This document shows positions 34,018-47,830 of a stretch of 64,000 bases of DNA, piece by piece. The position numbers were made by a program, and so were the translations under genes. The stretch is from positions 1,048-65,047 of the forward strand of contig CAVWJX010000016.1 in NCBI GenBank assembly GCA_963755435.1. The letters run 5' to 3'. Origin of the DNA: an uncultured Alphaproteobacteria bacterium. GTDB taxonomy: Bacteria > Pseudomonadota > Alphaproteobacteria > ATCC43930 > CGMCC-115725. The notes under the pieces are model-generated. The model saw only the letters and a program-made list of their open reading frames with translations. It was not told the DNA's origin and searched no databases. Position 1 is the stretch's first letter; every line of letters begins with the position of its first letter.

Positions 34018-35100
34018 TCACGCGGCGCGCGCAAGCCTCTCGCGGCGGCTGTTCATTAAAGGCTGGATGCGCTGCCCAAACTGCTCCATGCCGATTAGGA
34101 AATCATCGAAAGTCAGCATCAGCCCCTTGGTGCCCGGTAGGGCGGCCGCCTCGTCGAGCATATGCGCGACCGAGGCATAGGAGCCGACCAGCGTCCCCAT
34201 GTTGAAGTTGATCGCACCCTCCGGCAGAACAATCGACTTCGCTGTCGATCCTTCCGTCGCATTCGGGTCGGCCCCGGCCTGGCCGGCCATCCACGCCAGC
34301 GCGCTTGTATCGACGCCGTCGTTATAGTGCCGCCATTTGACCATCGCCGCCTCGTCGGTTTCGTCGGCGATCACCATCAACAGGACATAGGTGCCGACAT
34401 CCCGTCCGGTGCGTGCCGCCGCGGCGAGCATCCGCTCGTTGGTCGGGGCGTGGGCGGTCGGCGTGTTGACCCCCGACCCGATGACGAAATTATAGTCGCC
34501 GTATTCGGCGCCGAACTGCATGCCGCGCTCGCTCTGCCCGGCGCAGACGATCTTGACCGGCATCTGCGGTCGCGGGCTCAGGCGGCAGTCGTCCATCCGG
34601 AAGAAATCGCCCTTGAAGTCGGACCGTCCGGTTTCCCACAGCTCGCGCATGACCCGCACATATTCGGTGCTGTAGTCGTAGCGGCGGGCGAAATGCGGCT
34701 CGCCAGGCCACAGGCCCATCTGCTCGTATTCGGCCTTGGCCCAGCCGGAGACGATGTTGACGCCGAACCGGCCTGGGGCAATCGAGTCGATCGTCGCCGC
34801 CATGCGCGCCACGATCGCCGGCGGGATGGTCAGCACCGCGACTGAGGCATAGAGCTTGATCCGCTGCGTCACCGCGGCGAGCCCGGCCATCAAGGTAAAC
34901 GATTCGAGATTGTGGTCCCAGAACTCGCTGACCCCGCCGAACCCGCGCAGCTTGATCATCGACAGCGCAAAGTCGAGGCCATACCGCTCCGCCTGCTGCA
35001 CGATCTCGCGGTTGAGCTCGAAGCTCGGCATATATTGCGGCGAGGTAGTCGAGATCAGCCATCCATTGTTGCCGATCGGGATGAAAACGCCGATATCCAT
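34018..35100 (-). CDS. rutA: Pyrimidine monooxygenase RutA (LLM flavin-dependent)
   Basis: Reads [97 protein letters not shown]. This is near-collinear with E. coli RutA as I recall it. Confidence 0.85.
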
Positions 35101-35194
35101 AATCACCCACCAAACGAGTGTCGAGACGATGAACTCGGCCGCAGCAACGTGCGTGCCAAGTCGTGGCGGCGGTCGGCTTTGTCGATGCCGGTAA

Positions 35195-36650
<1,456 letters not shown>

Positions 36651-36724
36651 GGCCGCATCGAGCAGGCAATCGATCGTCATCGGGAACAGCAATGCCGACG
36701 GATTGAGCCGCTGCAGCCGCGCCA

Positions 36725-36960
36725 TCAGATCGGTCGGCCGTCTGCCAGAGAGATCGGCGAAAAATCGACGCATTTGTCGAGCACCGCCTCCTCCTGCGCC
36801 GGCGTCATCGCGATCGGGTTCTCATGGCTGTAGCCGTGGATGCCGATCACGGAAATCCGCCCGCGACGCCTAATCGTCGCGCCGATCACCGCAAATGGCA
36901 TACCATCAGCGGGCATGCGCGCCGCGACTATCGTCCGGTCGCTGTCGAACCGCCGCAAAA
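36725..36960 (-). pseudogene. Polysaccharide-deacetylase-like fragment
   Basis: ..ISVIGIHGYSHENPIAMTPAQEEAVLDKCVDF.. resembles the H-x-H core block of that family. It has no proper ends and runs into the CobW fragment with a frame change. Confidence 0.35.
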
Positions 36961-37088
36961 TGAGAGGCGCAAGATGCGCACACCGGCAAGAAACAGCGCA
37001 GCCGGGTTGTAAACCCGGTCCTGGGTGGCCCTCGATTTGCACGAAACGAGCTGCTTTGCATGCGACAATCGGGATGGAGCCGGAGCCA

Positions 37089-38441
37089 ATGAACCAAGAC
37101 CGCCGCGGCGAGACGATGCGGCTCGGGGCCTTTTTTCATCCGACCGGCAACCACGTCGCCGCCTGGCTGCATCCCGAGGCGCAGATCGACGCCGGCACCA
37201 ATTTCCGGCACTACGCCGAGATCACGCAGACCGCCGAGCGCGCCAAGTTCGACCTGATGTTTGTCGCCGACGCAGTGGCGGTGCGCGACGGCAAGCTCGC
37301 AGCGCTCTCCCGCTGGCCGCAATACATGGCGTATTTCGACCCGCTGACCCTGCTGCCGGCGCTGGCGGCGGTGACCACGCATATCGGCCTCTGCGCCACC
37401 GCGACGACCAGCTACAACGAGCCCTACCACATCGCCCGCAAGTTCGCCTCGCTCGACCATATCAGCGGCGGCCGCGCCGGCTGGAACGTCGTCACCTCCT
37501 CCAACCCGTCCGAAGCCTACAATTTCGGCCGCGAACAGCATTACGAGCACGGCGAGCGCTACGACCGGGCGGTCGAATTTGTCGAGGTGGTTCAGGGCTT
37601 GTGGGACAGCTGGGACGACGATGCCTTTTTGCGCGACCGCGCCTCGGGCTGCTATTTCGACCCCGCCAAGCTGCACGTGCTGAACCACAAGGGACAGCAT
37701 TTCTCGGTGCGCGGGCCGCTCAATGTCGCGCGCGCCCCGCAGGGTCATCCGGTGCTGTTCCAGGCCGGCTCGTCCGATGTCGGCCGCGAAGTCGCCGCGC
37801 GCTTTGCCGAAGGTGTCTTCACGCCGCAGCACAGCCTCGACGGCGCCCAGGAGTTTTACCGAGACCTCAAAGGGCGCATGGCGCGCTACGGGCGGCCGCC
37901 GGAGGCCTTGAAGATCATGCCGGGGCTCAACGTGATCGTCGGCCGCACCGCCAAGGAGGCGCAAGAAAAGCACCGCTTCCTGCAATCGAAGATCCACCCG
38001 GATGTCGGGCTCGAATTGTTGTCGAACCAGCTCGGCAATTTCGATTTGTCGGAATACGACCTTGATGTCCCATTGCCCGACATCCCCGAAAGTGCCGCGG
38101 CGCTGAGCGGAGTGACGTCGATGCGCATCATCATGCGGTGGGCGCGCGAAGAGCGGCTGACGATCCGGCAGATCTACGAGCGCTTCGCCGGCGCACGCGG
38201 CCAGCGCACCCTTCTCGGGTCGCCCGCCGACATCGTCGACGACATGGAGCGCTGGTTTCGCGGGTACGGTGTCGACGGGTTTCTGGTGCACCCGTCGCAT
38301 TTGCCGGGCGGGCTGGACGATTTTGTCGAGCTGATCGTCCCGGAACTGCAGTCGCGCGGCCTCTTCCGCACCGAATACGAAGGCCCCACCCTACGCGAGA
38401 ACATTGGCCTCGAACGCCCGCCGAGCCGGTACGCGCGCTAG
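37089..38441 (+). CDS. LLM flavin-dependent monooxygenase (NtaA/SnaA/DszA family)
   Basis: Reads MRLGAFFHPTGNHVAAW, FDLMFVAD, LDHISGGRAGWNVVTS, GERYDRAVEF and RGLFRTEYEGPTLRENIGL. Start ambiguous (37074, 37089 or 37116). Confidence 0.8.
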   Translation: MNQDRRGETMRLGAFFHPTGNHVAAWLHPEAQIDAGTNFRHYAEITQTAERAKFDLMFVADAVAVRDGKLAALSRWPQYMAYFDPLTLLPALAAVTTHIGLCATATTSYNEPYHIARKFASLDHISGGRAGWNVVTSSNPSEAYNFGREQHYEHGERYDRAVEFVEVVQGLWDSWDDDAFLRDRASGCYFDPAKLHVLNHKGQHFSVRGPLNVARAPQGHPVLFQAGSSDVGREVAARFAEGVFTPQHSLDGAQEFYRDLKGRMARYGRPPEALKIMPGLNVIVGRTAKEAQEKHRFLQSKIHPDVGLELLSNQLGNFDLSEYDLDVPLPDIPESAAALSGVTSMRIIMRWAREERLTIRQIYERFAGARGQRTLLGSPADIVDDMERWFRGYGVDGFLVHPSHLPGGLDDFVELIVPELQSRGLFRTEYEGPTLRENIGLERPPSRYAR

Positions 38442-38666
38442 CCTGCGATCATTCGGCGAGTTATTGGCAAGACGCTGTAGGAGCCGTGCGTTCCGGCCCT
38501 ACTAACCGCTTCCTTCATATGTCCGAAACCCTCCCCGAAAGCGCCCATCGAGCACCGGCATGCGCTATCGCAGACTGAAAACCCCAGGCTGGCCTTGGCC
38601 AAGCTCTGACACGTAACGTGACGCGGGAATGACGGAGAGTGCTTATCTAGCAGGCCGTTGAAGAAG

Positions 38667-38996
38667 TCATTCGAGGCGGGCGGTGAGAATGGCGTCGTCG
38701 CCGTTGTCGAAGGACAGCTCGATTTCGATAGAGCCATCGTCCTGAAGTTCGGCCGATCCGTCCCCGGAGACCTCATCGCCTTCGTCGAAGCCGCTCCAGC
38801 GGAAGAAGACGATGGTCTGGGAGTATTCGAGCTCGCCACCGGCAGTGACGCAGCCGAAAGCAAACTCGGCCCACCCGTCGCGGCCGATCTCGAGACAAGC
38901 CGGCTCGACCATATCGAGATATTTGGGGTCCCACAGATCGGCTTCGACGATCCGCCAACGACCGAGCAATTCGCAGCTTGCCACCGGGTCGCTCAT
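38667..38996 (-). CDS. IS-borne second ORF (orfB), paralog of 117-464
   Basis: Reads MSDPVASCELLGRWRIVEADLWDPKYLDMVEPACLEIGRDGWAEFAFG..FFRWSGFDEGDEVSGDGSAELQDDGSIEIELSFDNGDDAILTA. The ATG shares one base with the transposase stop (TGATG). Confidence 0.65.
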   Translation of the reverse strand: MSDPVASCELLGRWRIVEADLWDPKYLDMVEPACLEIGRDGWAEFAFGCVTAGGELEYSQTIVFFRWSGFDEGDEVSGDGSAELQDDGSIEIELSFDNGDDAILTARLE

Positions 38997-40121
38997 CACG
39001 CCGCCGCCAGCAGCGCGGGCGCCCGCACCAGGTTGTAGGCGGCCACCGCGAAGGTGAAGGCCCAGGCGACCTTGGCCCGGCCCCGCAGCTTGGTCTGGCG
39101 CAGGCCCGCCACCATCTTGATCCAGCCGAACGCCTCCTCGATCCGCTTGCGGATGTGCTGGCTCTTGGCATAGCCGGGGTGGCGTGTCGTGCGCTTGTCG
39201 ATCGCCGAGCGCCGGCCGCTCAAATTCTGCGCCACGTGCGGCCGCACGTTCAGGGTGCGCAATTCCTCGACCAAAATCGGCCGCGTCGTAGCTCTTGTCG
39301 GCGCCGAGCGTGACCGCCACCGGCCGCTCGGCGACAGGCTCGATCATGTCGAGCGCCGCCAGCCGCTCGGCGTGACCCGACACCAGGGTGAGCCGGGCAT
39401 CCACCAGGAGGCCCGAGCGGTTTTCCATCAGCCCGTGACCGATGTAGCACAACCGCGCCTCCATGCCCGGCCCTTTGCGGTAGAGCCGCGCGTCGGGATC
39501 GGTGGTGCTGCGGTGCGTCGCGTTCGAGCGCTTCTGGCCGCGAAAATCAGAGGGCGCATTGCGTCCGCCCCCGCCTTCGCTCTCCGGCGGCTCTTTCGGC
39601 TTGAAGCTCTTCATCGAGGCCCACGCCTGGATCAAGGTGCCATCGACCGAGAAGTGGTCACTCGACAACAACCGCTTGACCCGCGGCTGCGACAGCACGG
39701 CGGTGAGGAACTTGGCGGCGATCTCACCCTCCAACAGCCGGTCGCGGTTCTTCGAGAAACTCGAATGATCCCACACCGGGTCGTCGATGCCGAGGCCGAC
39801 GAACCAGCGAAACAACAGGTCGAACTCGATCCGCTCCATCAACTGCCGCTCCGAGCGCACCGAGTAGAAGGCTTGCAGCAGCATTGCCCGCAGCAATTTC
39901 TCCGGTGGCACCGACGGCCGCCCGATGCCGGAATAGAGCGCCGTGAAGTCGCCGGAGAGCGCCGCCAGGGCGGCGTTCGCGATCTCGCAAATCGGCCGCA
40001 GCGGATGATCCGCCCGAACCCGATCCTCCAGATCTATGTAGCTGAAAAGGCTGCCGCAAATATCATCATCGCCGCGCATCGCCACCCCCCGTCCCCTCTT
40101 CAGGGAATCACGACGCGCCAA
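38996..40121 (-). pseudogene. IS5/IS1182-family DDE transposase with one apparent 1-nt insertion
   Basis: The N-terminus LFSYIDLEDRVRADHPLRPI..LLRAMLLQAFYSVRSERQLMERIEFDLLFRWFVGL has an InsH-type N-domain. The frame breaks at ..GADKSYDAADF|VEELRTLNVRPHV.. (extra base at 39271-39272). The total length of 1126 nt equals 375 codons plus 1. Confidence 0.8.
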
Positions 40122-40185
40122 ATCGGCAACCCTTTTTCAACAGCCTGCTAGGGGCCAGCTGTAGCTATTAGAGCCAGGAGGTAAC

Positions 40186-41862
40186 ATGCTGCGCCTCGAC
40201 GATTTGTACCGTATGACGGCGTACATCTACGGCGATCGCAACTCAACGCGGCCAAAGGAGGCAACTTTCGCCCACTTCGTTGAAGTCTGCGGTATGTTAA
40301 CAGTGGACGAGCGGGCGAAGAAGAAGGAGGACTTCGACCTAGCGGACGCCCTGTGCAAGGCGCTCGGATGGTTTTTCCCTTTATTGGCTAAAATGGGCGT
40401 ATCCAGCGCGGAAGAACTCGTCCTTCGAAAGTACCCGCGCGTGTGCCCCTACTGCCGAATGGCTCCGCATGATGATTGGACCTGTAAGCAGGTGCGAGGG
40501 ACCGAAGCGACGCTTGATCATAATGCTGTGAGAATTGCCTTTCAGCAGAACTGGGACAAGCGTCCTGTCGGGCTCGACGCATGGCGTGGGATGTTTCAGC
40601 AAATCTATCCCCGCAACCTGAACGAGGGACCACGAAGTGTTATTGGCCTTATGGAGGAGCTAGGAGAACTGGCCGAGGCGGTTCGCGTATTCGATGAACA
40701 CCCTCAGTACTTTCTGGGTGAAGCTGCAGACACCTTCTCTTACCTAATGGCGATTGCAACCGAGTATATGTTGCGTCAGGCCCGCGATGGAAATTCGTTT
40801 TGTGTTCGAGGAGGAGTATATCGCGCGCTACCCAGGCCTCTGTCTTCTATGTAGCTCAAGGGTCTGCATTTGCCCTGCGATTCCGTCAGCTACGATTGGC
40901 CGAATGGCCAAGGAGCTCAAAATCAGTGCGGAAGAACATCTGTTCGTCTCGGATAAGGAGAAATTCCAAGCAGCAGGTGCCAAAGCTGCTCATATTGTTC
41001 TCGAAAGATTTGGTGGGTATTCTGCCGTAATAGAGCGGCTTCCTTTCGATCGCGGCGACGCTAACAGCGCTCTCGTCCAATTGTGTCTGAAAATGGCAGA
41101 CGCCGTCGAAGCCACGAATCAAAGGCTCGCAGCAACTCTTCGCGGCGAAGCGGTGAGAATGGGAACAAATACAAGCCGGGCAGGCAGTCCGAGCGTAAGG
41201 TTCGACGTCAAGAAGCTTCTGACCGAGCTCTGGAGCGGCTGGCGTGATCTAGGCGAGGAGAGGCAGAAAGAGATCAAGGCAACTGGCGGGCTTGTCGAGG
41301 AGCTAGGTGAGGTGCTCAATTCGATCAAGGTTCTATTCATCGCCCCAAACCCGGGCGCTGAGCTTACCTTGCCGACGAGCAGCGGGCCATTCGCAAGGCA
41401 ATCGAAACGGGCACAAACGCCACAAAGATATTCATCCATGATTTACCCGCGGCGCGAGTAGACGACTTTCGGAGTGTGCTGCTCAAAAATGGCTTCGACG
41501 TCATCCATTTTTCTGGTCACTCTAATGCCAAGTCATTGGTGTTCCAAGGTGAAGGAGGTGCGGCAGACGAAGTGTCGATGGACGCGTTCGCCCAGGCCCT
41601 ATCGGACTATCCCGTTAGGTGCGTCGTGTTGAACGCGTGCTCCTCAATCGTCAATCTCACGGAACCAATCTCCCCGATCACCATCGGCATGGATGCGGCA
41701 ATTGCCGATGAAGCTGCCGTTGAATTCTCGCGTGGCTTTTACGACGCGTTAGCGAACGGAAAAAGTTTCGCACGCGCATTCGACGAAGGTAAAACTGCTC
41801 TCAAGCTAAAGGGCTACGACGATTCGCTAGTGAGGATGATTACACCCAAGGATCCGACCTAG
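40186..41862 (+). pseudogene. Tandem MazG-like NTP pyrophosphohydrolase / CHAT (caspase-like) protease fusion, two apparent frameshifts
   Basis: AGGAGG + 4 nt + ATG. The MazG motifs are MEELGELAEAV and GEAADTFSYLMAI, each half followed by a Cys cluster (YPRVCPYC..C; YPGLCLLCSSRVCIC). The C-terminus has the CHAT pattern VLFIAPNP..LADEQRAIRKAIE..DVIHFSGHS..VRCVVLNACSS. The frame changes near 40788-40805 and 41355-41372. Confidence 0.7.
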
Positions 41863-41929
41863 ATGTCGCACTAGGGGTAGGATGAGACATCCCGAGCATG
41901 AGGCTCGAACGGCCGCCTAGCCAGTCTGC

Positions 41930-43246
41930 TCAAAATTCGAGCAAATTGTCTCGGAACTGTTCGAAGCTGTAAGCCTTGCGCACCAGGCCGCGATCTTGCA
42001 ATGCCGGCACCAGCCCGTCTTCGATCTCGGCGAGGGTGCGGCGGCTGACATTCGGCAATGAGAACAGATAGCCGTCGCCGCCGACCTCCTCGATGACCTC
42101 GCCCATGCGCGCGGCGACCGTTTCGGGCGTGCCGATCAGCTCGATCGACAGACTCGTCGCGTTGTAATCGGCCATCGTCTCGCGCAGCGTGCGATTGCCG
42201 GCGATGCGCTTGAACTGTTCGAGATTGAGCTGGTGGCCGTTGGTCGTGATCTCGATATCGGCAATCGGCCGGTCGAGATCGAAGACCGAGAAATCCACGT
42301 TGATCAACTTGCCGAAAAAAGCGAGGCGCTGCGCGATCTGCGCCGCCGCCCGGGCGGCCCGGCGGCGCTTGTGCTCCTGTGCCAGTTCCTCGGTTTCGCC
42401 GAGGATCGGGTCGATCATGAACAGCACCTTGCAGGCATCTGGGTCGCGGCCGCACGCTGCCATATGTCGCCGCACATCGTCGCGGTACGCTTTCATCGCG
42501 CCGATACCCTTGGCATGGGCGACGATCGTATCAGCGTGCCGCGCGGCGAAGGCGCGACCGCGCGGCGAACCGCCAGCCTGCGCAATGACCGGCTGGCCCT
42601 GCGGACAGGGGCCCGAGTTGAGCGGCCCGCGCGTCTTGAACCAGTTTCCCGCGAAATTGACGTGGCGGACTTTCGCCCTGTCGATAAACACGCCATTCGC
42701 CCGGTCGGCGATGATTGCTCCCGGCTCCCACGAGGCCCAGAGCGCCTTGACTGCCGCCATGTATTCGTCGGCCATGTCGTAGCGCAGATCATGATCGGGG
42801 AGGCCGGACAGGCCAAAATTCATCGCCGCGAAATCCGAGCTGCCGGTGACTGCATTCCAGCCGATCCGCCCGGACGAAACCTGGTCTAAGGTCGCGACGA
42901 GCCGCGCCAGCAGATAGGGGTGGTAGGCGTAGGTGCCAAAGGTCGGGACGATGCCGATGCGCGAGGTGGCCTGGGTCATCAATGCCGCAATGACCGAGGG
43001 GTCCTGGCGCGGCACGGCGATCGCGTTTTCGAGGTAGATCGCGTTCGAGCCGCCATAGCTTTCGCCGATGTAGGACGAATCCTCGATCAGCACATAGTCG
43101 AACCGGGCGCGCTCCAGCACCCGCGCCAGATCGACGAACAGCTCCGGCACCATCCAGTTGGTGCCGATATGCCCGGTCCACGCCTCGCCCCAGGCCTGGG
43201 CGCTCGACCCTTGCAGAAACCACGCGAGATGAAACGGCTTTGGCAT
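41930..43246 (-). CDS. LLM flavin-dependent monooxygenase (NtaA/DszA family)
   Basis: Reads MPKPFHLAWFL, FDYVLIEDS, LDQVSSGRIGWNAVTG, RYDMADEYM and RGLVRKAYSFEQFRDNL. Confidence 0.8.
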   Translation of the reverse strand: MPKPFHLAWFLQGSSAQAWGEAWTGHIGTNWMVPELFVDLARVLERARFDYVLIEDSSYIGESYGGSNAIYLENAIAVPRQDPSVIAALMTQATSRIGIVPTFGTYAYHPYLLARLVATLDQVSSGRIGWNAVTGSSDFAAMNFGLSGLPDHDLRYDMADEYMAAVKALWASWEPGAIIADRANGVFIDRAKVRHVNFAGNWFKTRGPLNSGPCPQGQPVIAQAGGSPRGRAFAARHADTIVAHAKGIGAMKAYRDDVRRHMAACGRDPDACKVLFMIDPILGETEELAQEHKRRRAARAAAQIAQRLAFFGKLINVDFSVFDLDRPIADIEITTNGHQLNLEQFKRIAGNRTLRETMADYNATSLSIELIGTPETVAARMGEVIEEVGGDGYLFSLPNVSRRTLAEIEDGLVPALQDRGLVRKAYSFEQFRDNLLEF

Positions 43247-43288
43247 TGGGACCGGCTCGCCCCGACGCCGCTCGCCAAGAGCGCCGCA

Positions 43289-43555
43289 TCAAAACGAAGA
43301 GTGATGGCGCTCCGCCTCGCCGGGCCATCTACCTACCGCGAGCGCCGCATCGAGTCGGCGCAGCAACGGTTCGGTATGCCGAGCCACGAAAGCAAGGGCG
43401 ATCCCGGCCGACAATGCGAGCGCCCGAAGCTGCCAGCCGCACGACCCCGCCAGCAGCGCGACCCCGGCCAGGATGATCGCCGCGCAATAGAGGTTCACGC
43501 GGAACACGATGACGTGTTCGTCGAAACTGAGCGGCTCAAAAGCTTCAGGGAACAT
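43289..43555 (-). CDS. Small membrane protein (88 aa), hypothetical
   Basis: GGAGG + ATG. The product has two hydrophobic segments (VNLYCAAIILAGVALLAG, LALSAGIALAFVA). Confidence 0.4.
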   Translation of the reverse strand: MFPEAFEPLSFDEHVIVFRVNLYCAAIILAGVALLAGSCGWQLRALALSAGIALAFVARHTEPLLRRLDAALAVGRWPGEAERHHSSF

Positions 43556-43649
43556 GGCGACCTCCCGCAGGCAGGTGAACCCGGCGCCCCATTCAGTGCA
43601 AAAGTCGTGCCCTTTGTCGCCAATATCGATTGCGGGGGCGCAGCCCGGC

Positions 43650-44882
43650 TCAGGCGGCCGGCTTTGCGCGGTGATAGGCCCGCAGCAGCCAGGCATTGAA
43701 CTGTACCAGCGTGGCCTCGAGCGGGCCGTAATATCCAACCGGCATAAACCGCGAGCGTTTTCCGGCCTGCATCGCCTTATTGACGGGCACATCCTGCGCC
43801 CAGATTTTTCCCGCCCCTTCGCGCACCGCGGCGGCGCGCTCGGTAAAATCCGCGAGTGCGACGGTCTTTCGCGGCAGGATCCAGCCGCCGCCAGTAACGC
43901 GATCGCTGGAGGCAAGGGTCGCTTCCGCCGCAATCGGCACCAGCAAGGTGTAAGCCACCGCCCCGGGCGCGAACATCAGCTGCAAATTAGGCGGCACCAT
44001 CGCAAAGGTCAGCCGGCCGCGCTGCGCGGGGCTCAGAGCTTCGATCGGCGGGAACATCGCCTCCGCGCCCCAGCCGTCGCGCATCATGCCGCCATCCGGG
44101 TGCCGCATCGGAACGCTGCGCACAATGGCGTTGTCTCCGTCGGCCATTGGCGTGAAGGCGACGCCGTCCTCGCCCAGGACGCTCGGCGCGAAATCATGCG
44201 TGCCGCGATGTACGAATTCGGGATGGTAGGCGTCGGTGAAATTTTCGAGCTGGAGCTTCCAGTTCCAAGGCAGCGGCGTCGTCGCGGCGACGGGCGGCAC
44301 GGTGACGAGATCGGCTTCCGCGTAGCCCCGCCAGCAGGCTTCGACCTGGGCGAGGCTCGGGGTCAAGGGTTCGGCCGTTCCATCGAGGTTGACGAAGATG
44401 AAGCCGTGCCACAATTCGACCCGCACCGGCGGCAATCGTACCGTGTCGCGCAACCGCGCCAGCGCGTCGCCGACCCGGGGTGCGCCGACCAGGCGGCCCT
44501 CCAGGTCATAAGTCCAAAAATGCAGCGGGCAGCGCAGCCGGCCGCGCGGCCCGTCGCCGTCGCAACTGATCACATGCCCGCGATGCTGACAGACTGCGCC
44601 GAGCGCGCGGATCTCGCCGGCAGTGCCGCGCACGATGATCACCGGCTCGCCGGCCACCGACGCCGACATCAGGTCGCCCGGCTCGGCGATCTGGTCGGCG
44701 CGGCCGACGCAGACCCAGTTCCGCGCGAACACGGCCTCGCGCTCGAATTCGAAAAACGCCGGCGAGGTGTAGCAGAACCGCGGCAGCATCGGCGCCGCAG
44801 CTTCGCTTCCGGCATAGGGCGGCAAGGCGTCCAGGATCGCCGTCACCTCGGGAGTTAGGCAAGAGGGATTGCCGTGCGACAT
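43650..44882 (-). CDS. Rieske [2Fe-2S] aromatic-ring-hydroxylating oxygenase, alpha-subunit type
   Basis: Rieske motif CQHRGH..(17)..CPLHFW. Catalytic-domain block NFTDAYHPEFVH. Confidence 0.8.
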   Translation of the reverse strand: MSHGNPSCLTPEVTAILDALPPYAGSEAAAPMLPRFCYTSPAFFEFEREAVFARNWVCVGRADQIAEPGDLMSASVAGEPVIIVRGTAGEIRALGAVCQHRGHVISCDGDGPRGRLRCPLHFWTYDLEGRLVGAPRVGDALARLRDTVRLPPVRVELWHGFIFVNLDGTAEPLTPSLAQVEACWRGYAEADLVTVPPVAATTPLPWNWKLQLENFTDAYHPEFVHRGTHDFAPSVLGEDGVAFTPMADGDNAIVRSVPMRHPDGGMMRDGWGAEAMFPPIEALSPAQRGRLTFAMVPPNLQLMFAPGAVAYTLLVPIAAEATLASSDRVTGGGWILPRKTVALADFTERAAAVREGAGKIWAQDVPVNKAMQAGKRSRFMPVGYYGPLEATLVQFNAWLLRAYHRAKPAA

Positions 44883-44885
44883 GCT

Positions 44886-45281
44886 TCAGACCTCCGCGCT
44901 GCGGGCCAGCAGATCGATTTCGACGAGCGCCCCGCGGGCGAGCGCGGTGACGCCGATGCAGGTTCGGGCCGGCAGCCGTCCGGCTGCGAAATAGGTCTGA
45001 TAGACCCGGTTCATCACGGCGTAGTCGCGCTCGAAATGGGTCAGATAGACCCGGGCCGACACCACGCGATCGAGCCCGCACCCGGCGCCGGCCAAAACCC
45101 GTTGCAAATTCTCGATCACCCGGCGCGTCTGCGCCTCGATCCCCTCCGGCAACGGCGCATCGTCGTTGTCGGGATCGGTCGGCATCTGGCCGGTGACGAA
45201 CAGCCAGCCATCGGCCGCGACCGCGTGGCTGAACGGCGCCACCGGCTTGGGGGCATCGGGGACCATCAGAAACTCGATCAC
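44886..45281 (-). CDS. RidA/YjgF/RutC-family reactive-intermediate deaminase
   Basis: Reads PDAPKPVAPFSHAVAADGWLFVTGQMP..IEAQTRRVIENL..ARVYLTHF..MNRVYQTYF..PARTCIGV..LARGALVEID. GTG start at 45281, or ATG at 45266. Confidence 0.8.
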   Translation of the reverse strand: MIEFLMVPDAPKPVAPFSHAVAADGWLFVTGQMPTDPDNDDAPLPEGIEAQTRRVIENLQRVLAGAGCGLDRVVSARVYLTHFERDYAVMNRVYQTYFAAGRLPARTCIGVTALARGALVEIDLLARSAEV

Positions 45282-45286
45282 CGGGG

Positions 45287-46483
45287 TTACTCGGCCGCTG
45301 GAGGAGAGGCCCGACGCTCCGCGGGCTGCGCGAACTCGTGCGCGGTATCCGGCGGCTGGCGCGCCTGCGTCCTCGCAAAACGACGCCAAGCGGCAACGCC
45401 GACATCGCTGCGCGACAGCAATTCCTTGCCGGGGACCACGGCTTCGAGAATGCGCTTGTCCTGGTCGGAAAACAGCCAATCGTGCACCCAGGACAGCCAA
45501 AAGATCCAGACCAGCCGGTCGGCGATGGTCCGCCACCGGCCGCGGCGGCGAAACAGGCTGAAGGCATAGTAGAGCGTCGTCTCGGCGTCGATCGGGACGA
45601 CCCAGCGGCAGGTAAAATAATTCCCGGTCGGGCGACCGATCAGGGTAACGCCGGGCAACAGCGACGACTGCCGGTATTTGACACCGTATTTGACGATCGC
45701 CGGGTCATTCGGATCGATCTCGCGGCCGCGTCCGATCGGCTTGAGCACCCGGTACCAGCTTTCCCGCCGCGGCGGAAACCGCCCCAGCCCCGGGTAGTCC
45801 GCTTCGGTGATCCCGTCCCGCGACAGGTAGCCGATGCCCTTGCCGTCGTCGAGCGGCACCGCGGAGACGCGCGAGGCGTGCGGGAAGATCGGCTGAAACA
45901 TCAATTCGGGCGCGTTCCGGTGCAGGAACGGCGCGTGCAGGTCGTGGCACAGATTGTCCTTCAGGATGCGCCAGTTGCAACGATAGGTACGCCAGCTCGA
46001 CAGGCCGTGCCACTCGCTCGTCCGGGCCAGGCACTCCGGCAGGTCCGCTTCAAGTGCCACCGCCGCCATGTCGCCGACGAACACCCATAGGACGCCGCGC
46101 AACTCGCGCACCGGATACGATTTCACCCCGGCCTGGCGCGGCATCGGTGCATCGGGGCCCTCCATCAGCTTGGCCACGCAATGCCCGGTCTCTCCGGAAA
46201 AGGTCCAGCCGTGATAGGGGCAGCTGATCGTGCCCGAACCGGGATAAAGGCACTTGCCCTGAGACAGGCTGGCGCCGCGATGCGGGCAGCGGTCGCCGAG
46301 CGCGTAGACCGCACCGCCGCGGTCGCGAAACAGCACGATATTTTCGCCGAGCAGGCGCACGCGTCGCGGCCGGCGCCGCAGCCGCCATCCGGCCAGGGCC
46401 GGGTACCAATAATTGCGCAGGCCCAGTTCCGGCAGGCCGGTTGCGGCAAAGGGATCGCTGTCCGGAAATTTCGTCACGCTCAT
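45287..46483 (-). CDS. Rieske [2Fe-2S] oxygenase
   Basis: Rieske motif CPHRGASLS..(16)..CPYHGW. The 398-aa ORF is followed 5 nt later by the RidA gene. Confidence 0.8.
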   Translation of the reverse strand: MSVTKFPDSDPFAATGLPELGLRNYWYPALAGWRLRRRPRRVRLLGENIVLFRDRGGAVYALGDRCPHRGASLSQGKCLYPGSGTISCPYHGWTFSGETGHCVAKLMEGPDAPMPRQAGVKSYPVRELRGVLWVFVGDMAAVALEADLPECLARTSEWHGLSSWRTYRCNWRILKDNLCHDLHAPFLHRNAPELMFQPIFPHASRVSAVPLDDGKGIGYLSRDGITEADYPGLGRFPPRRESWYRVLKPIGRGREIDPNDPAIVKYGVKYRQSSLLPGVTLIGRPTGNYFTCRWVVPIDAETTLYYAFSLFRRRGRWRTIADRLVWIFWLSWVHDWLFSDQDKRILEAVVPGKELLSRSDVGVAAWRRFARTQARQPPDTAHEFAQPAERRASPPAAE

Positions 46484-46723
46484 CCTACTATCCCTGATCG
46501 CGGAAAGGGTTGCACTCCAACGACTCGGCCTCCTCTCGCTGTTCGTGGCGATGTCGGGGTCGGCCGCACAGGATCGGGGCCCCGACCGCAGACCGCATGC
46601 GGCGTGAAGTGCATGAGGCGTGCCACCGCGCGACCTCCAATGCGGGGCATCCGGCGCCTAGACTTGTGAATGGCATGGTTCGTGCGTGGCGCAGCACTGT
46701 CCGGCACTTTTGGAGAGCGCACG

Positions 46724-47830
46724 ATGACGACCGTACCCCGGTTTTCCCGCCGCCGTCTTCTCGCCGCGGCGGGGTCGGCAGCTGCGGGCGTTGCCGGCGG
46801 CCTTGCTCTCCCCCGCATGGTTTACGCACAGAACGTGAAGCCGGTTAAATTCACCCTGCCTTGGGTGTCTGACGGCAGCAATCTGTTTGTTTATGTCGCC
46901 AAAGAAATGGGGTTTTGGGACAAGCACGGGCTCGATGTTTCGATCGCGCGCGGCAACGGGTCGGTCGCCGCCGCCGAGGCAATCGGCGCCGGCAGGTTCG
47001 ATTTCGGCCTGGCCGCCCCGCTCGCCGCGATCCTCGAGACCGTCAAGGGCCTGCCGCTGACGGCGCTCGCGGCGTGTGCATACGACGCCACAATGGGCAT
47101 TGGCGTCTTGAACGATGGCCCGATCAAGAACCCCAAAGATCTCGAGGGGCACAAGATGGGCTCGACCGTGACCTCGGGCGAATACCCGTTTTTGCCCGCT
47201 TTCGCCGAAAAGGCCGGTTTCGATCTGTCAAAGGTGACGATCGTCCAAGTCGACAACAAGGTGCGCGACGCACTCTTGCCCGAGCACAATGTCGACGCGA
47301 TCTCAGGTTTCGCCACGACCTTCATGGCCGATTACGTCGCTGATGGCGTGAAGGCGCACGCGATGCTGTACAGCCATTACGGCATCCCCAATTACGGCAA
47401 TACTGTCCAGACCCAGCCGCAGCGCGTCGCCCAGGCGCCGGAACTGTGCGCAGCCTTCGTCGACGGGATGATGCAAGGGCTGAAAGCGACGATGCTCGAC
47501 CCGCAGGGCGCAATCAAAATCCTGCTCAAGGCGGCGCCCGAACTGGCGCTGGCGGCACAGGCGCGCGAGCAGATCAGGGTCGGGACTGGCCTGATGATCT
47601 ATGTCAGCGCACGCGACACGGTCACGACCAAAGGACTGGGTTATCTCGACCCCAACGACTACGCCGCGCAGACCGACCTGGTAATGAAATATCTCGCCAA
47701 GCCCGGCGACAAGCGTCCGGAAATCGCCAGCATGATGACCAACCGCTTTGTCGGCCAGCTCAAACTGAACGCCGCCGAGTGGAGTGCGGTGCAGAAGAAC
47801 GCGCAGGAATACAGCCCCTATGTGAGCTGA
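46724..47830 (+). CDS. NMT1/THI5-like (NitT/TauT-type) ABC transporter substrate-binding protein
   Basis: Tat-like signal MTTVPRFSRRRLLAAAGSAAAGVAGG. Paralogous to 52292-53395 (VKFTLPWV / VKFTLAWL blocks). Confidence 0.75.
   Translation: MTTVPRFSRRRLLAAAGSAAAGVAGGLALPRMVYAQNVKPVKFTLPWVSDGSNLFVYVAKEMGFWDKHGLDVSIARGNGSVAAAEAIGAGRFDFGLAAPLAAILETVKGLPLTALAACAYDATMGIGVLNDGPIKNPKDLEGHKMGSTVTSGEYPFLPAFAEKAGFDLSKVTIVQVDNKVRDALLPEHNVDAISGFATTFMADYVADGVKAHAMLYSHYGIPNYGNTVQTQPQRVAQAPELCAAFVDGMMQGLKATMLDPQGAIKILLKAAPELALAAQAREQIRVGTGLMIYVSARDTVTTKGLGYLDPNDYAAQTDLVMKYLAKPGDKRPEIASMMTNRFVGQLKLNAAEWSAVQKNAQEYSPYVS

What the first reader, a model, noticed from the sequence alone, without database searches (positions are those of the whole stretch)
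40186..41862. Single-gene tandem-MazG / CHAT-protease fusion in a low-GC islet
Seen directly: a strong ribosome-binding site and ATG open a ~558-codon reading unit. It comprises two MazG-like all-alpha NTP-pyrophosphohydrolase halves (EELGELAEAV and EAADTFSYL metal motifs, each followed by a Cys cluster), then a helical linker, then a compact CHAT caspase-like domain (HFSGHS His and LNACSS Cys dyad). G+C is visibly lower than the surrounding catabolic genes, and the gene is the first thing beyond an IS end. By established knowledge, CHAT proteases and nucleotide-depleting enzymes each appear in anti-phage and abortive-infection contexts. I am not aware of a described MazG-CHAT fusion. My inference is a stand-alone conflict or defence effector that couples nucleotide hydrolysis or sensing to proteolysis. 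Two 1-nt frame breaks (about 40790 and 41360) mean it is either decayed or mis-assembled.
Basis: partly seen in the sequence, partly recalled or inferred. Interest (0 to 1): 0.75.

Follow-up and report, generated by a model that had tools for sequence, protein, structure and literature searches.

The report
Broken MazG-like/CHAT protease defence gene
This is an inactivated copy of a real, widespread but undescribed bacterial gene. It joins a nucleotide-triphosphate-binding (MazG-like) module to a caspase-like CHAT protease. Intact relatives look like single-gene anti-phage or conflict proteins, and the same front module is also fused to other effector enzymes.

Summary
Window 40186-41862 (+) carries one 558-codon gene split into three reading-frame pieces by two 1-nt indels. 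One is an extra T in the T-run 40798-40801. The other is one base lost at 41366-41373. An IS5-type element (38647-40151, CTAG target duplication) also sits 34 bp upstream of the start codon. G+C is 0.54 against 0.65-0.67 in the flanks.

The repaired protein aligns end to end with more than 400 intact proteins of about 560 aa. The CHAT assignment is solid. The MazG assignment is probable. It is a tandem duplication in which only repeat 2 keeps the EExxE...ExxD acidic motifs, and each repeat ends in a zinc knuckle.

The N-terminal module of about 350 aa also occurs with other domains: a PNP_UDP nucleosidase, a cytidine/dCMP-type deaminase, a class III cyclase, a CARF domain and an unknown tail.

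No neighbouring gene is conserved. Many loci lie among defence or mobile genes (TIR/SLOG, SIR2, AIPR/AbiU, restriction-modification, integrases). No PADLOC or NCBIfam model matches the architecture, and no paper in the library describes it.

Best reading: a stand-alone defence-type protein in which a nucleotide-binding MazG-like switch controls an effector that depends on oligomerisation. This copy is dead or mis-assembled. Function is inferred, not shown.

The parts
38647..40151 (-). IS5-type insertion sequence. It has 20-nt terminal inverted repeats and CTAG at both ends. Its transposase is itself split between two frames.
   Evidence: Inverted repeat I4 is 90% complementary. DUF772 is found in 38667-40121, and DDE_Tnp_1_6 in another frame at 38996-39274. 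G+C is 0.651, like the host.
40176..40181 (+). Ribosome-binding site AGGAGG, 4 nt before the ATG at 40186.
   Evidence: Read directly from the sequence.
40186..41862 (+). The whole interrupted gene. After repair of two 1-nt indels it is 558 codons plus a stop.
40186..40497 (+). MazG-like repeat 1 (residues 1-104). It is degenerate: of the acidic motif residues only E33 is kept. It ends in a CCHC zinc knuckle (C87, C90, H95, C100).
   Evidence: hhalign of repeat 1 against repeat 2 gives E 3.7e-4 over 93 columns in register. Invariant residues are listed. The helical model has pLDDT 85.
40537..40885 (+). MazG-like repeat 2 (residues 118-233). It has intact metal-binding motifs (E157, E158, E161, E164, E179, D182) and a CCCC knuckle (C219, C222, C227, C229).
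   Evidence: Pfam MazG scores 12.6-13 bits here and 20.2-24.9 bits in relatives. Profile hits to solved MazG-family structures: 1vmg E 0.0065, 2q73 0.04, 2q5z 0.052. Every BFVD hit that carries a name and has probability 0.9 or above is of the NTP-PPase type. Invariance is shown.
40798..40801 (+). Frame break 1: one extra T in a T4 run. Homologues read ...RDGNSF-x-FEEEY... here.
40886..40942 (+). Conserved linker motif after knuckle 2 (residues 234-252, ...ATIGRMAKEL...). It is predicted to be disordered but contains invariant residues.
   Evidence: Invariant T236, G238, R239, K242 and E243. pLDDT is below 50 for residues 231-252. A related motif is present in the deaminase and cyclase subfamilies.
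40955..41317 (+). Helical middle domain (residues 257-377). It contains the invariant PFDRGD-N motif. No known family matches it. Its first part is shared with the non-CHAT variants.
   Evidence: Secondary structure. tblastn matches to PNP variants run to about residue 350. The only hit is a weak one to 2gsc, E 0.25.
41324..41841 (+). Compact CHAT (caspase-like) protease domain (residues 380-552). Catalytic His445 is at 41518-41520 and Cys485 at 41638-41640.
   Evidence: Pfam CHAT scores 38.7-47.5 bits against a cut-off of 24. The profile hits 8tl0 SAVED-CHAT at E 1.6e-18. Foldseek gives 8tl0 at E 1e-9, followed by a C11 protease, separase, caspases and MALT1.
41366..41373 (+). Frame break 2: one base lost. 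The frame-2 reading ...ELTL joins the frame-1 reading ADEQRAI....

Best explanation
**What it is.** Window 40186-41862 is an inactivated copy of a horizontally acquired single-gene cassette. It belongs to a conserved, uncharacterised family with four parts:
- A pseudo-dimeric tandem MazG-like module. Repeat 1 is degenerate and repeat 2 keeps the Mg-NTP-binding EExxE...ExxD residues. Each repeat is capped by a zinc knuckle.
- A conserved linker motif.
- A helical domain.
- A C-terminal CHAT protease.

**Inferred mechanism in intact relatives.** The MazG-like module binds, and probably hydrolyses, a nucleoside triphosphate-type ligand whose appearance or level reports infection or another conflict. 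Binding drives self-association of the protein. That association switches on the C-terminal enzyme, which needs to oligomerise to work. Here that enzyme is a caspase-like Cys/His protease, and its cleavage of cellular or invader proteins arrests the infection. Elsewhere it is a PNP-type nucleosidase, a deaminase or a cyclase.

**State of this copy.** The gene cannot be expressed as a full protein. An IS5-type element separates it from its upstream region, and two 1-nt indels break the frame.

**Shown:** the architecture, conservation, domain swapping, lack of a conserved partner, the neighbourhoods and the lesions.

**Inferred:** ligand binding, activation by oligomerisation and the defence role.

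**How the confidence splits.** About 0.95 that this is a broken member of a real MazG-like/CHAT family. About 0.65-0.7 that the family is a defence or conflict system. About 0.4-0.45 for the specific sensor and oligomerisation-switch mechanism.
For: **A real, constrained family**
- More than 400 intact full-length relatives.
- 738 representatives at 50% identity carry the N-terminal module.
- In 106 sequences the MazG acidic residues, all eight knuckle ligands and the CHAT His/Cys are invariant.

**CHAT**
- Pfam score above the cut-off.
- Profile hit to 8tl0 at E 1.6e-18.
- Fold match to SAVED-CHAT, caspases and separase.

**MazG-like**
- Internal repeat at E 3.7e-4.
- Profile hits to the solved MazG-family proteins 1vmg, 2q73 and 2q5z.
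- P0251 passes Pfam's MazG cut-off.
- The fold-search lists are enriched in MazG, dUTPase and NTP-PPase proteins.

**Module with swappable partners**
- CHAT, PNP_UDP_1, an unknown tail, or none.
- N-terminal cytidine/dCMP-type deaminase, or class III cyclase.
- CARF.
- The PNP domain matches PADLOC's CBASS 'Effector, PN-superfamily' model at E 2.9e-17.
- From established knowledge, caspase-like proteases, PNP-family enzymes, CDA-fold deaminases and class III cyclases all act as oligomers. That fits a shared oligomerisation switch.

**A nucleotide-binding domain that activates CHAT by assembly has a precedent:** the SAVED-CHAT filament, 8TL0.

**Stand-alone gene**
- No neighbour family recurs in more than 3 of 31 loci.
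- DNA homology stops at the gene's ends.

**Defence or mobile neighbourhoods**
- TIR/SLOG/ThsB_TIR and RelE.
- An integrative element plus HNH.
- A methylase and restriction enzyme plus a resolvase.
- SIR2_2, TIR_2, a restriction enzyme and an integrase.
- AIPR/AbiU three times, PD-T4-6, Mokosh and MADS components.

**Lesions**
-.
- The rest of the window has long intact ORFs.
- A Methylocella relative carries an independent frameshift at another site.
Against: - No experiment or ligand is known.
- The window copy and most relatives stay below Pfam's MazG cut-off.
- PDB fold matches for the N-terminal model are not significant; the best E is 0.65.
- The invariant catalytic residues fit a MazG effector that depletes NTPs as well as they fit a sensor.
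- The CARF fusion puts the module in the effector position.
- Some loci have only housekeeping neighbours.
- Enrichment near defence genes was not tested against a matched control.
- Neither frame break could be checked in independent reads, so 'dead copy' is not proven.
Confidence: 0.5

Rival explanations
1. The MazG module is itself the effector, or one of two effectors. It is an NTP/dNTP pyrophosphohydrolase that depletes or sanitises nucleotides. The fused deaminase or PNP completes an irreversible nucleotide-destroying cascade. CHAT is a second effector or a maturation protease. Sensing lies elsewhere, for example in the helical domain or in the enzyme's substrate specificity for phage-type nucleotides.
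For: - The catalytic acidic residues are invariant and kept in the deaminase- and cyclase-linked subfamilies.
- Three partner domains act on nucleotides.
- A CARF-module fusion places the module where effectors normally sit.
- A 2026 preprint predicts MazG-like domains as NTP-targeting effectors that replace a calcineurin-type dNTPase in PUA-HAD systems.
- DefensePredictor lists MazG among predicted but unvalidated defence domains.
Against: - A protease adds nothing obvious to a nucleotide cascade.
- In modular defence proteins the constant part is usually the sensor and the variable part the effector.
- The CARF-fused representative has partly degenerate MazG motifs.
- Forms with only the N-module may be assembly fragments.
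Confidence: 0.3
2. The two frame breaks are assembly or consensus errors in a metagenome-assembled contig. In the cell the gene is intact, although still preceded by the IS.
For: - At least the first indel lies in a homopolymer run, and together the two restore the frame.
- The repaired protein keeps every invariant residue. It departs from 125 highly conserved columns at only 3, and 2 of those are shared with intact close relatives.
- The three fragments are on record only from the single 73,171-bp contig.
- The adjacent IS transposase is also frame-broken. That could point to a locally poor consensus.
Against: - The rest of the window has uninterrupted ORFs of 400-735 codons and full-length Pfam domains in 7 neighbouring genes. 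Indel errors are therefore not general.
- Short-read contigs from run ERR11594399 match the neighbouring 4.7 kb at 99.8% without a single gap.
- A related Methylocella copy carries its own, different frameshift. Its contig name (k141_) suggests a short-read assembly. Decay of this gene therefore recurs.
Confidence: 0.3
3. The family has a housekeeping or regulatory role. One example would be nucleotide-pool or alarmone control coupled to regulated proteolysis in stress responses. It is not a defence or conflict system.
For: - Some loci have purely metabolic neighbours, such as glycogen enzymes, a 5'-nucleotidase and NUDIX in L007.
- Class II ribonucleotide reductase is adjacent in L011 and L034.
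- There is no PADLOC model for the architecture.
Against: - Distribution is patchy across at least seven major lineages (Alphaproteobacteria, Deltaproteobacteria, Acidobacteriota, Nitrospira, Planctomycetes, Bacteroidota, Eremiobacterota), and the close subfamily has only 29 loci in 185,579 species genomes.
- G+C is atypical here.
- Homology is confined to the gene itself.
- Effector-domain swapping includes a CBASS-type PNP effector.
- The gene is repeatedly embedded among TIR, SIR2, AIPR, restriction-modification, toxin-antitoxin and integrase genes.
- Pseudogenisation recurs.
Confidence: 0.12

Closest known systems
SAVED-CHAT protease of type III-B CRISPR-Cas (PDB 8TL0, activated filament)
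   Same: - It is the closest solved relative of the C-terminal domain: profile E 1.6e-18 and Foldseek E 1e-9 at 23-24% identity.
- It shares the HF-GH and LNAC dyad motifs.
- Its logic is the same: an N-terminal nucleotide-binding domain followed by a compact CHAT that is switched on by assembly.
   Different: - The N-terminus here is a tandem MazG-like module with zinc knuckles, not SAVED. PADLOC's SAVED_CHAT model matches only the CHAT part.
- No CRISPR, CD-NTase or other signal-making gene is conserved nearby.
- The ligand is unknown and is likely to carry a triphosphate rather than being a cyclic oligonucleotide.
Small MazG-family / all-alpha NTP pyrophosphohydrolases (e.g. SSO3215 1vmg, 2q73/2q5z, E. 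coli MazG 3cra, dimeric dUTPases)
   Same: - Helical bundle with EExxE...ExxD acidic motifs.
- Best PDB sequence matches of the N-terminal profile.
- The fold-search lists are dominated by this superfamily.
- Two domains form one unit, as in tandem E. coli MazG (established knowledge).
   Different: - Scores are below Pfam's cut-off for this copy.
- Repeat 1 has lost the catalytic residues.
- Each repeat carries a CCHC or CCCC knuckle that I did not see in the matched MazG structures.
- The module is fused to a helical domain and to effector enzymes.
Predicted MazG-containing defence systems (PUA-MazG-HAD variants; DefensePredictor candidates)
   Same: MazG-like domains have been proposed, without experimental validation, as nucleotide-directed components of anti-phage systems.
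   Different: Those are multi-gene or PUA-linked systems. Neither paper mentions CHAT or a caspase, and neither mentions a tandem zinc-knuckle MazG module.
PNP-type ATP-nucleosidase effectors (CBASS Cap17, Detocs DtcC) and defensive dCTP deaminases
   Same: - Sister architectures of this family replace CHAT with a PNP_UDP_1 domain. That domain matches PADLOC's CBASS 'Effector, PN-superfamily' model at E 2.9e-17.
- Other sisters carry a CDA-fold deaminase with a weak match to PADLOC's dCTPase model.
   Different: - Those domains are absent from the window's gene.
- In the known systems they are coupled to SAVED, receiver or kinase-like domains, not to MazG (established knowledge).

Membership tests
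CHAT / caspase-like (clan CD) peptidase, Pfam PF12770 | Profile score above Pfam's gathering threshold | tested here: met
   38.7 bits for the repaired protein and 42.3 bits for the third fragment, against a cut-off of 24. Homologues score 37-47.5 bits.
CHAT / caspase-like (clan CD) peptidase, Pfam PF12770 | Catalytic His...Cys dyad in the conserved G-H and N-A-C contexts | tested here: met
   His445 (HFSGHS) and Cys485 (LNACSS) are invariant in 106 sequences. They align with the HFIGH and LNAC motifs of 8tl0.
CHAT / caspase-like (clan CD) peptidase, Pfam PF12770 | Caspase-hemoglobinase fold | tested here: met
   The model has pLDDT above 90 over this domain. Foldseek finds 8tl0 at E 1e-9, followed by a C11 protease, separase, caspases and MALT1.
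CHAT / caspase-like (clan CD) peptidase, Pfam PF12770 | Peptidase activity | not testable with these tools
   This needs biochemistry. The window copy is frame-broken in any case.
MazG / all-alpha NTP pyrophosphohydrolase superfamily (Pfam clan of PF03819, PF01503, PF08761) | Profile score above Pfam's MazG gathering threshold (22 bits) | tested here: inconclusive
   - The window copy scores 12.6-13 bits.
- Relatives score 14-20.2 bits.
- The distant family member P0251 scores 24.9 bits, above the cut-off. It matches the family's N-terminal profile at E 4.7e-50.
MazG / all-alpha NTP pyrophosphohydrolase superfamily (Pfam clan of PF03819, PF01503, PF08761) | Acidic metal-binding motifs EExxE ... 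ExxD on two helices | tested here: met
   E157, E158, E161, E164, E179 and D182 are present in the window copy and invariant in 106 homologues. They align with the EEvGELaEA and eE-aDV motifs of 1vmg and 2q73.
MazG / all-alpha NTP pyrophosphohydrolase superfamily (Pfam clan of PF03819, PF01503, PF08761) | Sequence-profile similarity to solved MazG structures | tested here: inconclusive
   The top three PDB hits of the N-terminal profile are all MazG-family proteins, but they are weak: 1vmg E 0.0065, 2q73 0.04, 2q5z 0.052.
MazG / all-alpha NTP pyrophosphohydrolase superfamily (Pfam clan of PF03819, PF01503, PF08761) | Four-helix-bundle NTP-PPase fold | tested here: inconclusive
   - The N-terminal model has pLDDT 85 and pTM 0.85.
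- PDB matches are not significant (best E 0.65), but the list includes dimeric dUTPases, E. coli MazG and HisN2.
- BFVD matches have E 0.02-0.3, probability 1.0 and target TM up to 0.64. Among hits with probability 0.9 or above, every one that carries a name is of the NTP-PPase or related nucleotide-enzyme type.
MazG / all-alpha NTP pyrophosphohydrolase superfamily (Pfam clan of PF03819, PF01503, PF08761) | NTP pyrophosphohydrolase activity | not testable with these tools
   This needs enzyme assays.
SAVED-CHAT (CRISPR/CBASS-linked effector) | N-terminal SAVED sensor domain | tested here: not met
   PADLOC's SAVED_CHAT model matches only model positions 329-452 of 498, which is the CHAT part. 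The N-terminus is MazG-like.
SAVED-CHAT (CRISPR/CBASS-linked effector) | Linkage to a cyclic-oligonucleotide synthase (Cas10 or CD-NTase) | tested here: not met
   No neighbour family recurs in more than 3 of 31 loci. None is seen in the annotated contexts.
Any defence system catalogued in PADLOC-DB v2.0.0 | Match of the protein or its architecture to a system model | tested here: not met
   Only domain-level hits to SAVED_CHAT and BovA on the CHAT part. NCBIfam gives no hit.
IS5-family insertion sequence (the upstream element) | DDE transposase, terminal inverted repeats and a 4-bp CTAG-type target duplication | tested here: met
   DUF772 plus DDE_Tnp_1_6/DDE_Tnp_1. 20-nt inverted repeats. 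CTAG at 38647-38650 and 40148-40151. The preference of IS5 for YTAR targets is from established knowledge.

The most novel reading that the evidence does not exclude
The tandem MazG-like/zinc-knuckle module is a new class of single-protein immune sensor. It recognises an infection-derived nucleoside triphosphate, for example a phage-specific modified dNTP or an alarmone-like polyphosphate. It may also hydrolyse that ligand and so time its own response. By assembling on the ligand it activates whichever effector is fused to it: CHAT protease, PNP nucleosidase, deaminase or cyclase. This would be a modular, stand-alone defence family comparable in logic to SAVED or CARF effectors, but with no dedicated signal synthase.
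Probability: 0.3. Interest if true: 0.8.

Novelty: new variant of a known kind. Interest (0 to 1): 0.6.

Why it matters
- **A new sensor type.** If the inference holds, MazG-type domains have so far only been predicted, never validated, as defence components. This family would add them to the known set of nucleotide-binding domains that control caspase-like proteases and nucleotide-destroying effectors in bacterial immunity.
- **No dedicated signal-making enzyme.** It would give a single-gene system, easy to clone, in which protease activation depends on a nucleotide without a CRISPR or CD-NTase partner.
- **What counts as an infection signal.** The system bears on which small molecules bacteria read as signs of infection.
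- **Candidates for testing.** The sister architectures (PNP, deaminase, cyclase, CARF) form a ready-made comparative series. Named organisms carry family members: Rhizobiales bacterium GAS188, Rhodopseudomonas parapalustris, Paludibaculum fermentans and Anatilimnocola sp. NA78. The Anatilimnocola record is a complete genome.
- **This locus.** The practical message is smaller. The public record's three hypothetical ORFs are one broken gene, probably silenced by an IS and two indels.

Tried and rejected
- **NCBIfam:** no hit.
- **PADLOC:** only CHAT-level hits.
- **Literature:** searches for MazG with CHAT, caspase, pyrophosphohydrolase, deaminase plus anti-phage, or nucleosidase found nothing on this architecture.
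- **Foldseek with the full-length model:** it returned only CHAT and caspase matches in its top 50. I therefore modelled the N-terminus alone. PDB matches for that model were not significant.
- **First N-terminal alignment (A4):** I rebuilt it as A5.
- **Conserved partner gene:** rejected. All-against-all BLAST of 308 neighbouring ORFs in 31 loci found no family in more than 3 loci.
- **Obligate link to TIR/Thoeris-like genes:** considered, because a TIR_2 + SLOG + ThsB_TIR trio lies next to L002 and L029, and TIR_2 lies next to L038. Rejected as a requirement, because most loci lack TIR genes.
- **Programmed frameshifting:** rejected. Homologues are single ORFs, and the Methylocella copy breaks at a different site.
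- **Plasmid or phage carriage:** no full-length member in 72,556 plasmids or 50,697 phage records.
- **Independent confirmation of the indels:** failed. Short-read contigs of ERR11594399 stop at 41826, and the fragment proteins occur only on the 73-kb contig.
- **'N-module only' forms as a distinct architecture:** treated with caution. One such case sits on a contig with other fragmented genes and is followed by a separate PNP gene.
- **Frame plot by codon-position G+C:** too noisy to use. Replaced by a stop-to-stop ORF survey.
Full report
**1. The observation**

The sequence shows AGGAGG at 40176-40181, ATG at 40186 and TAG at 41860-41862. The ORF list gives three pieces on the + strand: 40186-40854 (frame 1), 40754-41461 (frame 2) and 41476-41862 (frame 1).

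Three-frame translation and alignment with homologues place the breaks precisely.
- The first is one extra T in the T4 run 40798-40801. Homologues read RDGNSF-x-FEEEY there.
- The second is one base lost within 41366-41373, where ...ELTL joins ADEQRAI....

Deleting one T and adding one base gives a 558-codon ORF that keeps every residue invariant in the family.

G+C is 0.543 for the gene, 0.651 for the IS and 0.65-0.67 for the flanks.

One detail was wrong. EELGELAEAV and EAADTFSYL both lie in the second MazG-like repeat, not one in each half.

**2. It is a real gene family**

The repaired protein finds 416 proteins at E ≤ 0.001. All 120 listed hits score E < 1e-160, and most are about 550-580 aa long and cover 97-100% of the query. 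The best are 86% identical.
- Sources call them 'CHAT domain-containing protein' (NCBI) or 'NTP pyrophosphatase (non-canonical NTP hydrolase)' (JGI).
- Named organisms include Rhizobiales bacterium GAS188 (P0004), Pseudorhodoplanes and Rhodopseudomonas parapalustris.

In a 106-sequence alignment the following residues are invariant:
- C87, C90, H95, C100 (first knuckle)
- E157, E158, E161, E164, E179, D182 (MazG-type acidic residues)
- C219, C222, C227, C229 (second knuckle)
- H445 and C485 (CHAT dyad)

**3. Domains**

*CHAT*
- Pfam PF12770 scores 37-47.5 bits against a cut-off of 24.
- A family profile hits the SAVED-CHAT protease 8tl0 at E 1.6e-18.
- An AlphaFold2 model has mean pLDDT 86.5. 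Its best Foldseek match is 8tl0 at E 1e-9, followed by a C11 protease, separase, caspases and MALT1.

*MazG*
- Pfam MazG reaches only 12.6-13 bits here, against a cut-off of 22. It reaches 14-20 bits in relatives.
- A profile of the N-terminal 235 residues has three MazG-family structures as its top PDB hits: 1vmg at E 0.0065, 2q73 at 0.04 and 2q5z at 0.052. The acidic motifs are aligned in these hits.
- The N-terminal model has pLDDT 85 and pTM 0.85. It gives no significant PDB fold match, but dimeric dUTPases, E. coli MazG and HisN2 are on the list.
- BFVD matches have E 0.02-0.3, probability 1.0 and target TM up to 0.64. Among hits with probability 0.9 or above, those that carry a name are NTP-PPase-like proteins, a nucleotide kinase and one thymidine kinase.
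- A distant family member, P0251, matches the N-terminal profile at E 4.7e-50 and passes Pfam's MazG cut-off at 24.9 bits.

I take MazG-superfamily membership as probable but not proven for this copy.

*Tandem duplication.* hhalign of residues 1-104 against 118-233 gives E 3.7e-4 over 93 columns in register. The module is therefore a tandem duplication of 'MazG-like bundle plus zinc knuckle'. Repeat 1 has lost most acidic residues, so the module is a pseudo-dimer with one complete site.

*Linker and middle domain.* Residues 231-252 are predicted to be disordered yet contain invariant residues (TIGRMAKEL). A helical domain follows at 257-377 and has no informative match.

**4. The N-terminal module travels with other domains**

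In a scan of one genome per species, several loci matched only residues 1 to about 350.
- In five of them (L026-L028, L030, L032) the ORF continues into a C-terminal PNP-like sequence. The three scanned (L026, L028, L030) score 48-63 bits for PNP_UDP_1, against a cut-off of 25.
- In others the ORF continues into a tail of about 150 aa of unknown type.

A search with the module alone listed several forms:
- CHAT forms of about 560 aa, the majority
- PNP forms of about 650 aa, including Paludibaculum fermentans P0147
- tail forms of about 500 aa
- short forms of about 360-410 aa

An exhaustive profile search found 738 representatives at E ≤ 1e-3, of which 129 score ≤ 1e-30. The more distant subfamilies carry further domains:
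- an N-terminal cytidine/dCMP-type deaminase (five proteins) or a class III nucleotide cyclase (one protein)
- a CARF domain, in P0275

The PNP domain matches PADLOC's CBASS 'Effector, PN-superfamily' model at E 2.9e-17.

Some short forms may be assembly fragments. One is followed by a separate PNP gene on a contig that has other fragmented genes.

**5. Context**

No partner is conserved. All-against-all BLAST of 308 ORFs within ±5 kb of 31 loci found no family in more than 3 loci. DNA similarity to related loci begins at the start codon and ends at the stop.

Neighbourhoods are often of the defence or mobile kind:
- ThsB_TIR, TIR_2, SLOG cluster 2, NOV_C and RelE/MqsA (L002)
- an integrative element plus HNH (L003)
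- a DNA methylase, Eco47II-like restriction enzyme and resolvase (L004-6)
- a serine recombinase (L001)
- SIR2_2, TIR_2, NmeDI_C and an integrase around the 81%-identical intact P0198 (L038)
- TIR_2, SLOG and ThsB_TIR upstream and a kinase-HD protein downstream (L029)
- AIPR next to L020 and L030
- among 130 further neighbours, AbiU/AIPR three times, PD-T4-6 twice, MkoA twice and MADS components

Other loci have housekeeping neighbours. I ran no matched control, so the enrichment is qualitative.

The close subfamily is rare and patchy: 29 loci in 185,579 species genomes. They span Alphaproteobacteria, Acidobacteriota, Deltaproteobacteria, Nitrospira, Planctomycetes, Bacteroidota and Eremiobacterota. 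No full-length member is found in the plasmid or phage collections. The same compact CHAT type occurs fused to TIR on cyanobacterial plasmids.

**6. State of this copy**

An IS5-type element lies at 38647-40151. It has 20-nt inverted repeats, CTAG at both ends, and DUF772 and DDE domains in two different frames. It sits 34 bp upstream of the ATG and so cuts the gene off from its upstream region. With the two indels, that makes three lesions.

The coding sequence is otherwise well kept. It departs at only 3 of 125 highly conserved columns, and 2 of those are shared with intact close relatives. Any decay is therefore recent.

*Arguments that the breaks are real*
- The rest of the window has uninterrupted ORFs of 400-735 codons, and 7 neighbouring genes have full-length domains.
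- Short-read contigs of ERR11594399 match 41826-43340 and 43357-46521 at 99.8% without gaps.
- The closest genome copy, in a Methylocella MAG (L011), has its own frameshift at residue ~154. Its contig name (k141_) suggests a short-read assembly.

*Arguments that they are artefacts*
- The source is a 73-kb MAG contig.
- At least the first indel lies in a homopolymer run.
- The three fragment proteins (222, 219 and 128 aa) are on record only from that contig.

I put about 0.65-0.7 on true pseudogenisation.

**7. Mechanism (inference)**

The constant part is a nucleotide-triphosphate-type binding or hydrolysing module. The variable parts are enzymes that, from established knowledge, work as oligomers: caspase-like proteases, PNP-family enzymes, CDA-fold deaminases and class III cyclases.

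The nearest characterised analogue of the CHAT domain is switched on when its nucleotide-binding SAVED domain assembles into a filament (8TL0).

I therefore favour a ligand-driven oligomerisation switch:
- The MazG-like pseudo-dimer binds, and may turn over, an infection-linked NTP-type molecule.
- The protein self-associates.
- The CHAT domains become active and cleave targets, which arrests the infection.

The main rival is that MazG is itself a nucleotide-depleting effector. Three observations favour this:
- The catalytic residues are invariant.
- A CARF-module fusion exists.
- A preprint predicts MazG-like domains as NTP-targeting effectors.

I cannot separate the two readings with these tools.

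**8. Comparison and novelty**

The protein is not a SAVED-CHAT. It has no SAVED domain and no linked cyclase. It matches no PADLOC v2 or NCBIfam family as an architecture.

Papers in the library mention MazG only as a predicted, unvalidated defence domain. None mentions it together with CHAT.

I rate it a new variant of a known kind: modular defence proteins that join a nucleotide-binding domain to an effector. This particular locus holds a dead or mis-assembled copy.

Noticed in passing
window 38647-40151: The IS5-type element next to the gene has a frame-broken transposase: DUF772 in one frame, and the DDE domain in another at 38996-39274. It also has a ~108-codon open stretch (about 38667-38990) after the DDE part, beginning MSDPVASCELLGRW..., of unknown nature. 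CTAG at both ends suggests a simple insertion.
   Followed up: partly
L011:2831-4479 (Methylocella sp. MAG): This is the closest genome copy (83-85% identical). It carries an independent frameshift at residue ~154, an extra G in a G-run (...SVIGG* / GLMEELGE...). It is annotated there as two proteins, P0197 (155 aa) and P0006 (401 aa). Inactivation of this gene therefore recurs.
   Followed up: partly
L002:4752-7290 and L029:4252-7271: A trio of TIR_2, SLOG cluster 2 (LD_cluster2) and ThsB_TIR genes lies next to a family member in two unrelated genomes. It is divergent in L002 and co-directional in L029. In L029 the family member lacks CHAT and is followed 38 nt later by a 928-aa kinase-HD protein. 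This could be defence-island co-occurrence or a functional link.
   Followed up: partly
L011:176-2572, L034:3679-6984, L003:6354-6692: Class II ribonucleotide reductase with a TSCPD domain lies just upstream of the gene in two loci. A small TSCPD protein lies there in a third. This hints at a link to dNTP metabolism or at a shared insertion site.
   Followed up: no
P0275 (730 aa), P0226/P0229/P0237/P0242/P0251, P0228: Distant relatives of the tandem MazG-like module are fused to a CARF domain (with partly degenerate MazG motifs), to cytidine/dCMP-type deaminases, or to a class III nucleotide cyclase. None of these architectures matched a PADLOC system model beyond weak domain hits.
   Followed up: partly
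window 40886-40942 (residues 234-252): A linker segment has model confidence below 50 but contains invariant residues (T236, G238, R239, K242, E243; motif TIGRMAKEL). A related motif (T-[IL]-x-R-[LM]-A-x-E) follows the second knuckle in the deaminase and cyclase subfamilies as well. Its role is unknown. It might be a docking, autoinhibitory or cleavage element.
   Followed up: no
plasmid hits H4, H11, H14 (Nostoc sp. HK-01, Acaryochloris marina): The same compact CHAT type (33-38% identical over about 170 aa) lies under genes annotated as TIR-domain proteins on cyanobacterial plasmids. TIR-CHAT fusions therefore exist.
   Followed up: no
window 38399-38430 and 41894-41925; 38326-38348 and 41937-41959: Imperfect direct repeats (78-83% identical, 23-32 nt) lie near the 3' ends of the two luciferase-like monooxygenase genes that flank the IS plus gene islet. 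They are not collinear. They may be chance matches or remnants of the insertion site.
   Followed up: no
window 34018-38441 and 41930-47830: The islet interrupts a run of catabolic genes: three luciferase-like monooxygenases, a 2OG-Fe(II) oxygenase, two Rieske-type oxygenases and an NMT1-like binding protein. All are intact. The ORF 36840-38441 has an N-terminal extension of about 100 codons before its Pfam domain, which probably reflects an upstream start call.
   Followed up: partly
L039:7001-9053: An 'N-module only' protein (P0142, 374 aa) is followed 89 nt later by a separate 279-aa PNP_UDP_1 gene. The contig also has fragmented RhuM and aconitase genes. Some short forms in databases are therefore probably broken PNP fusions.
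   Followed up: partly
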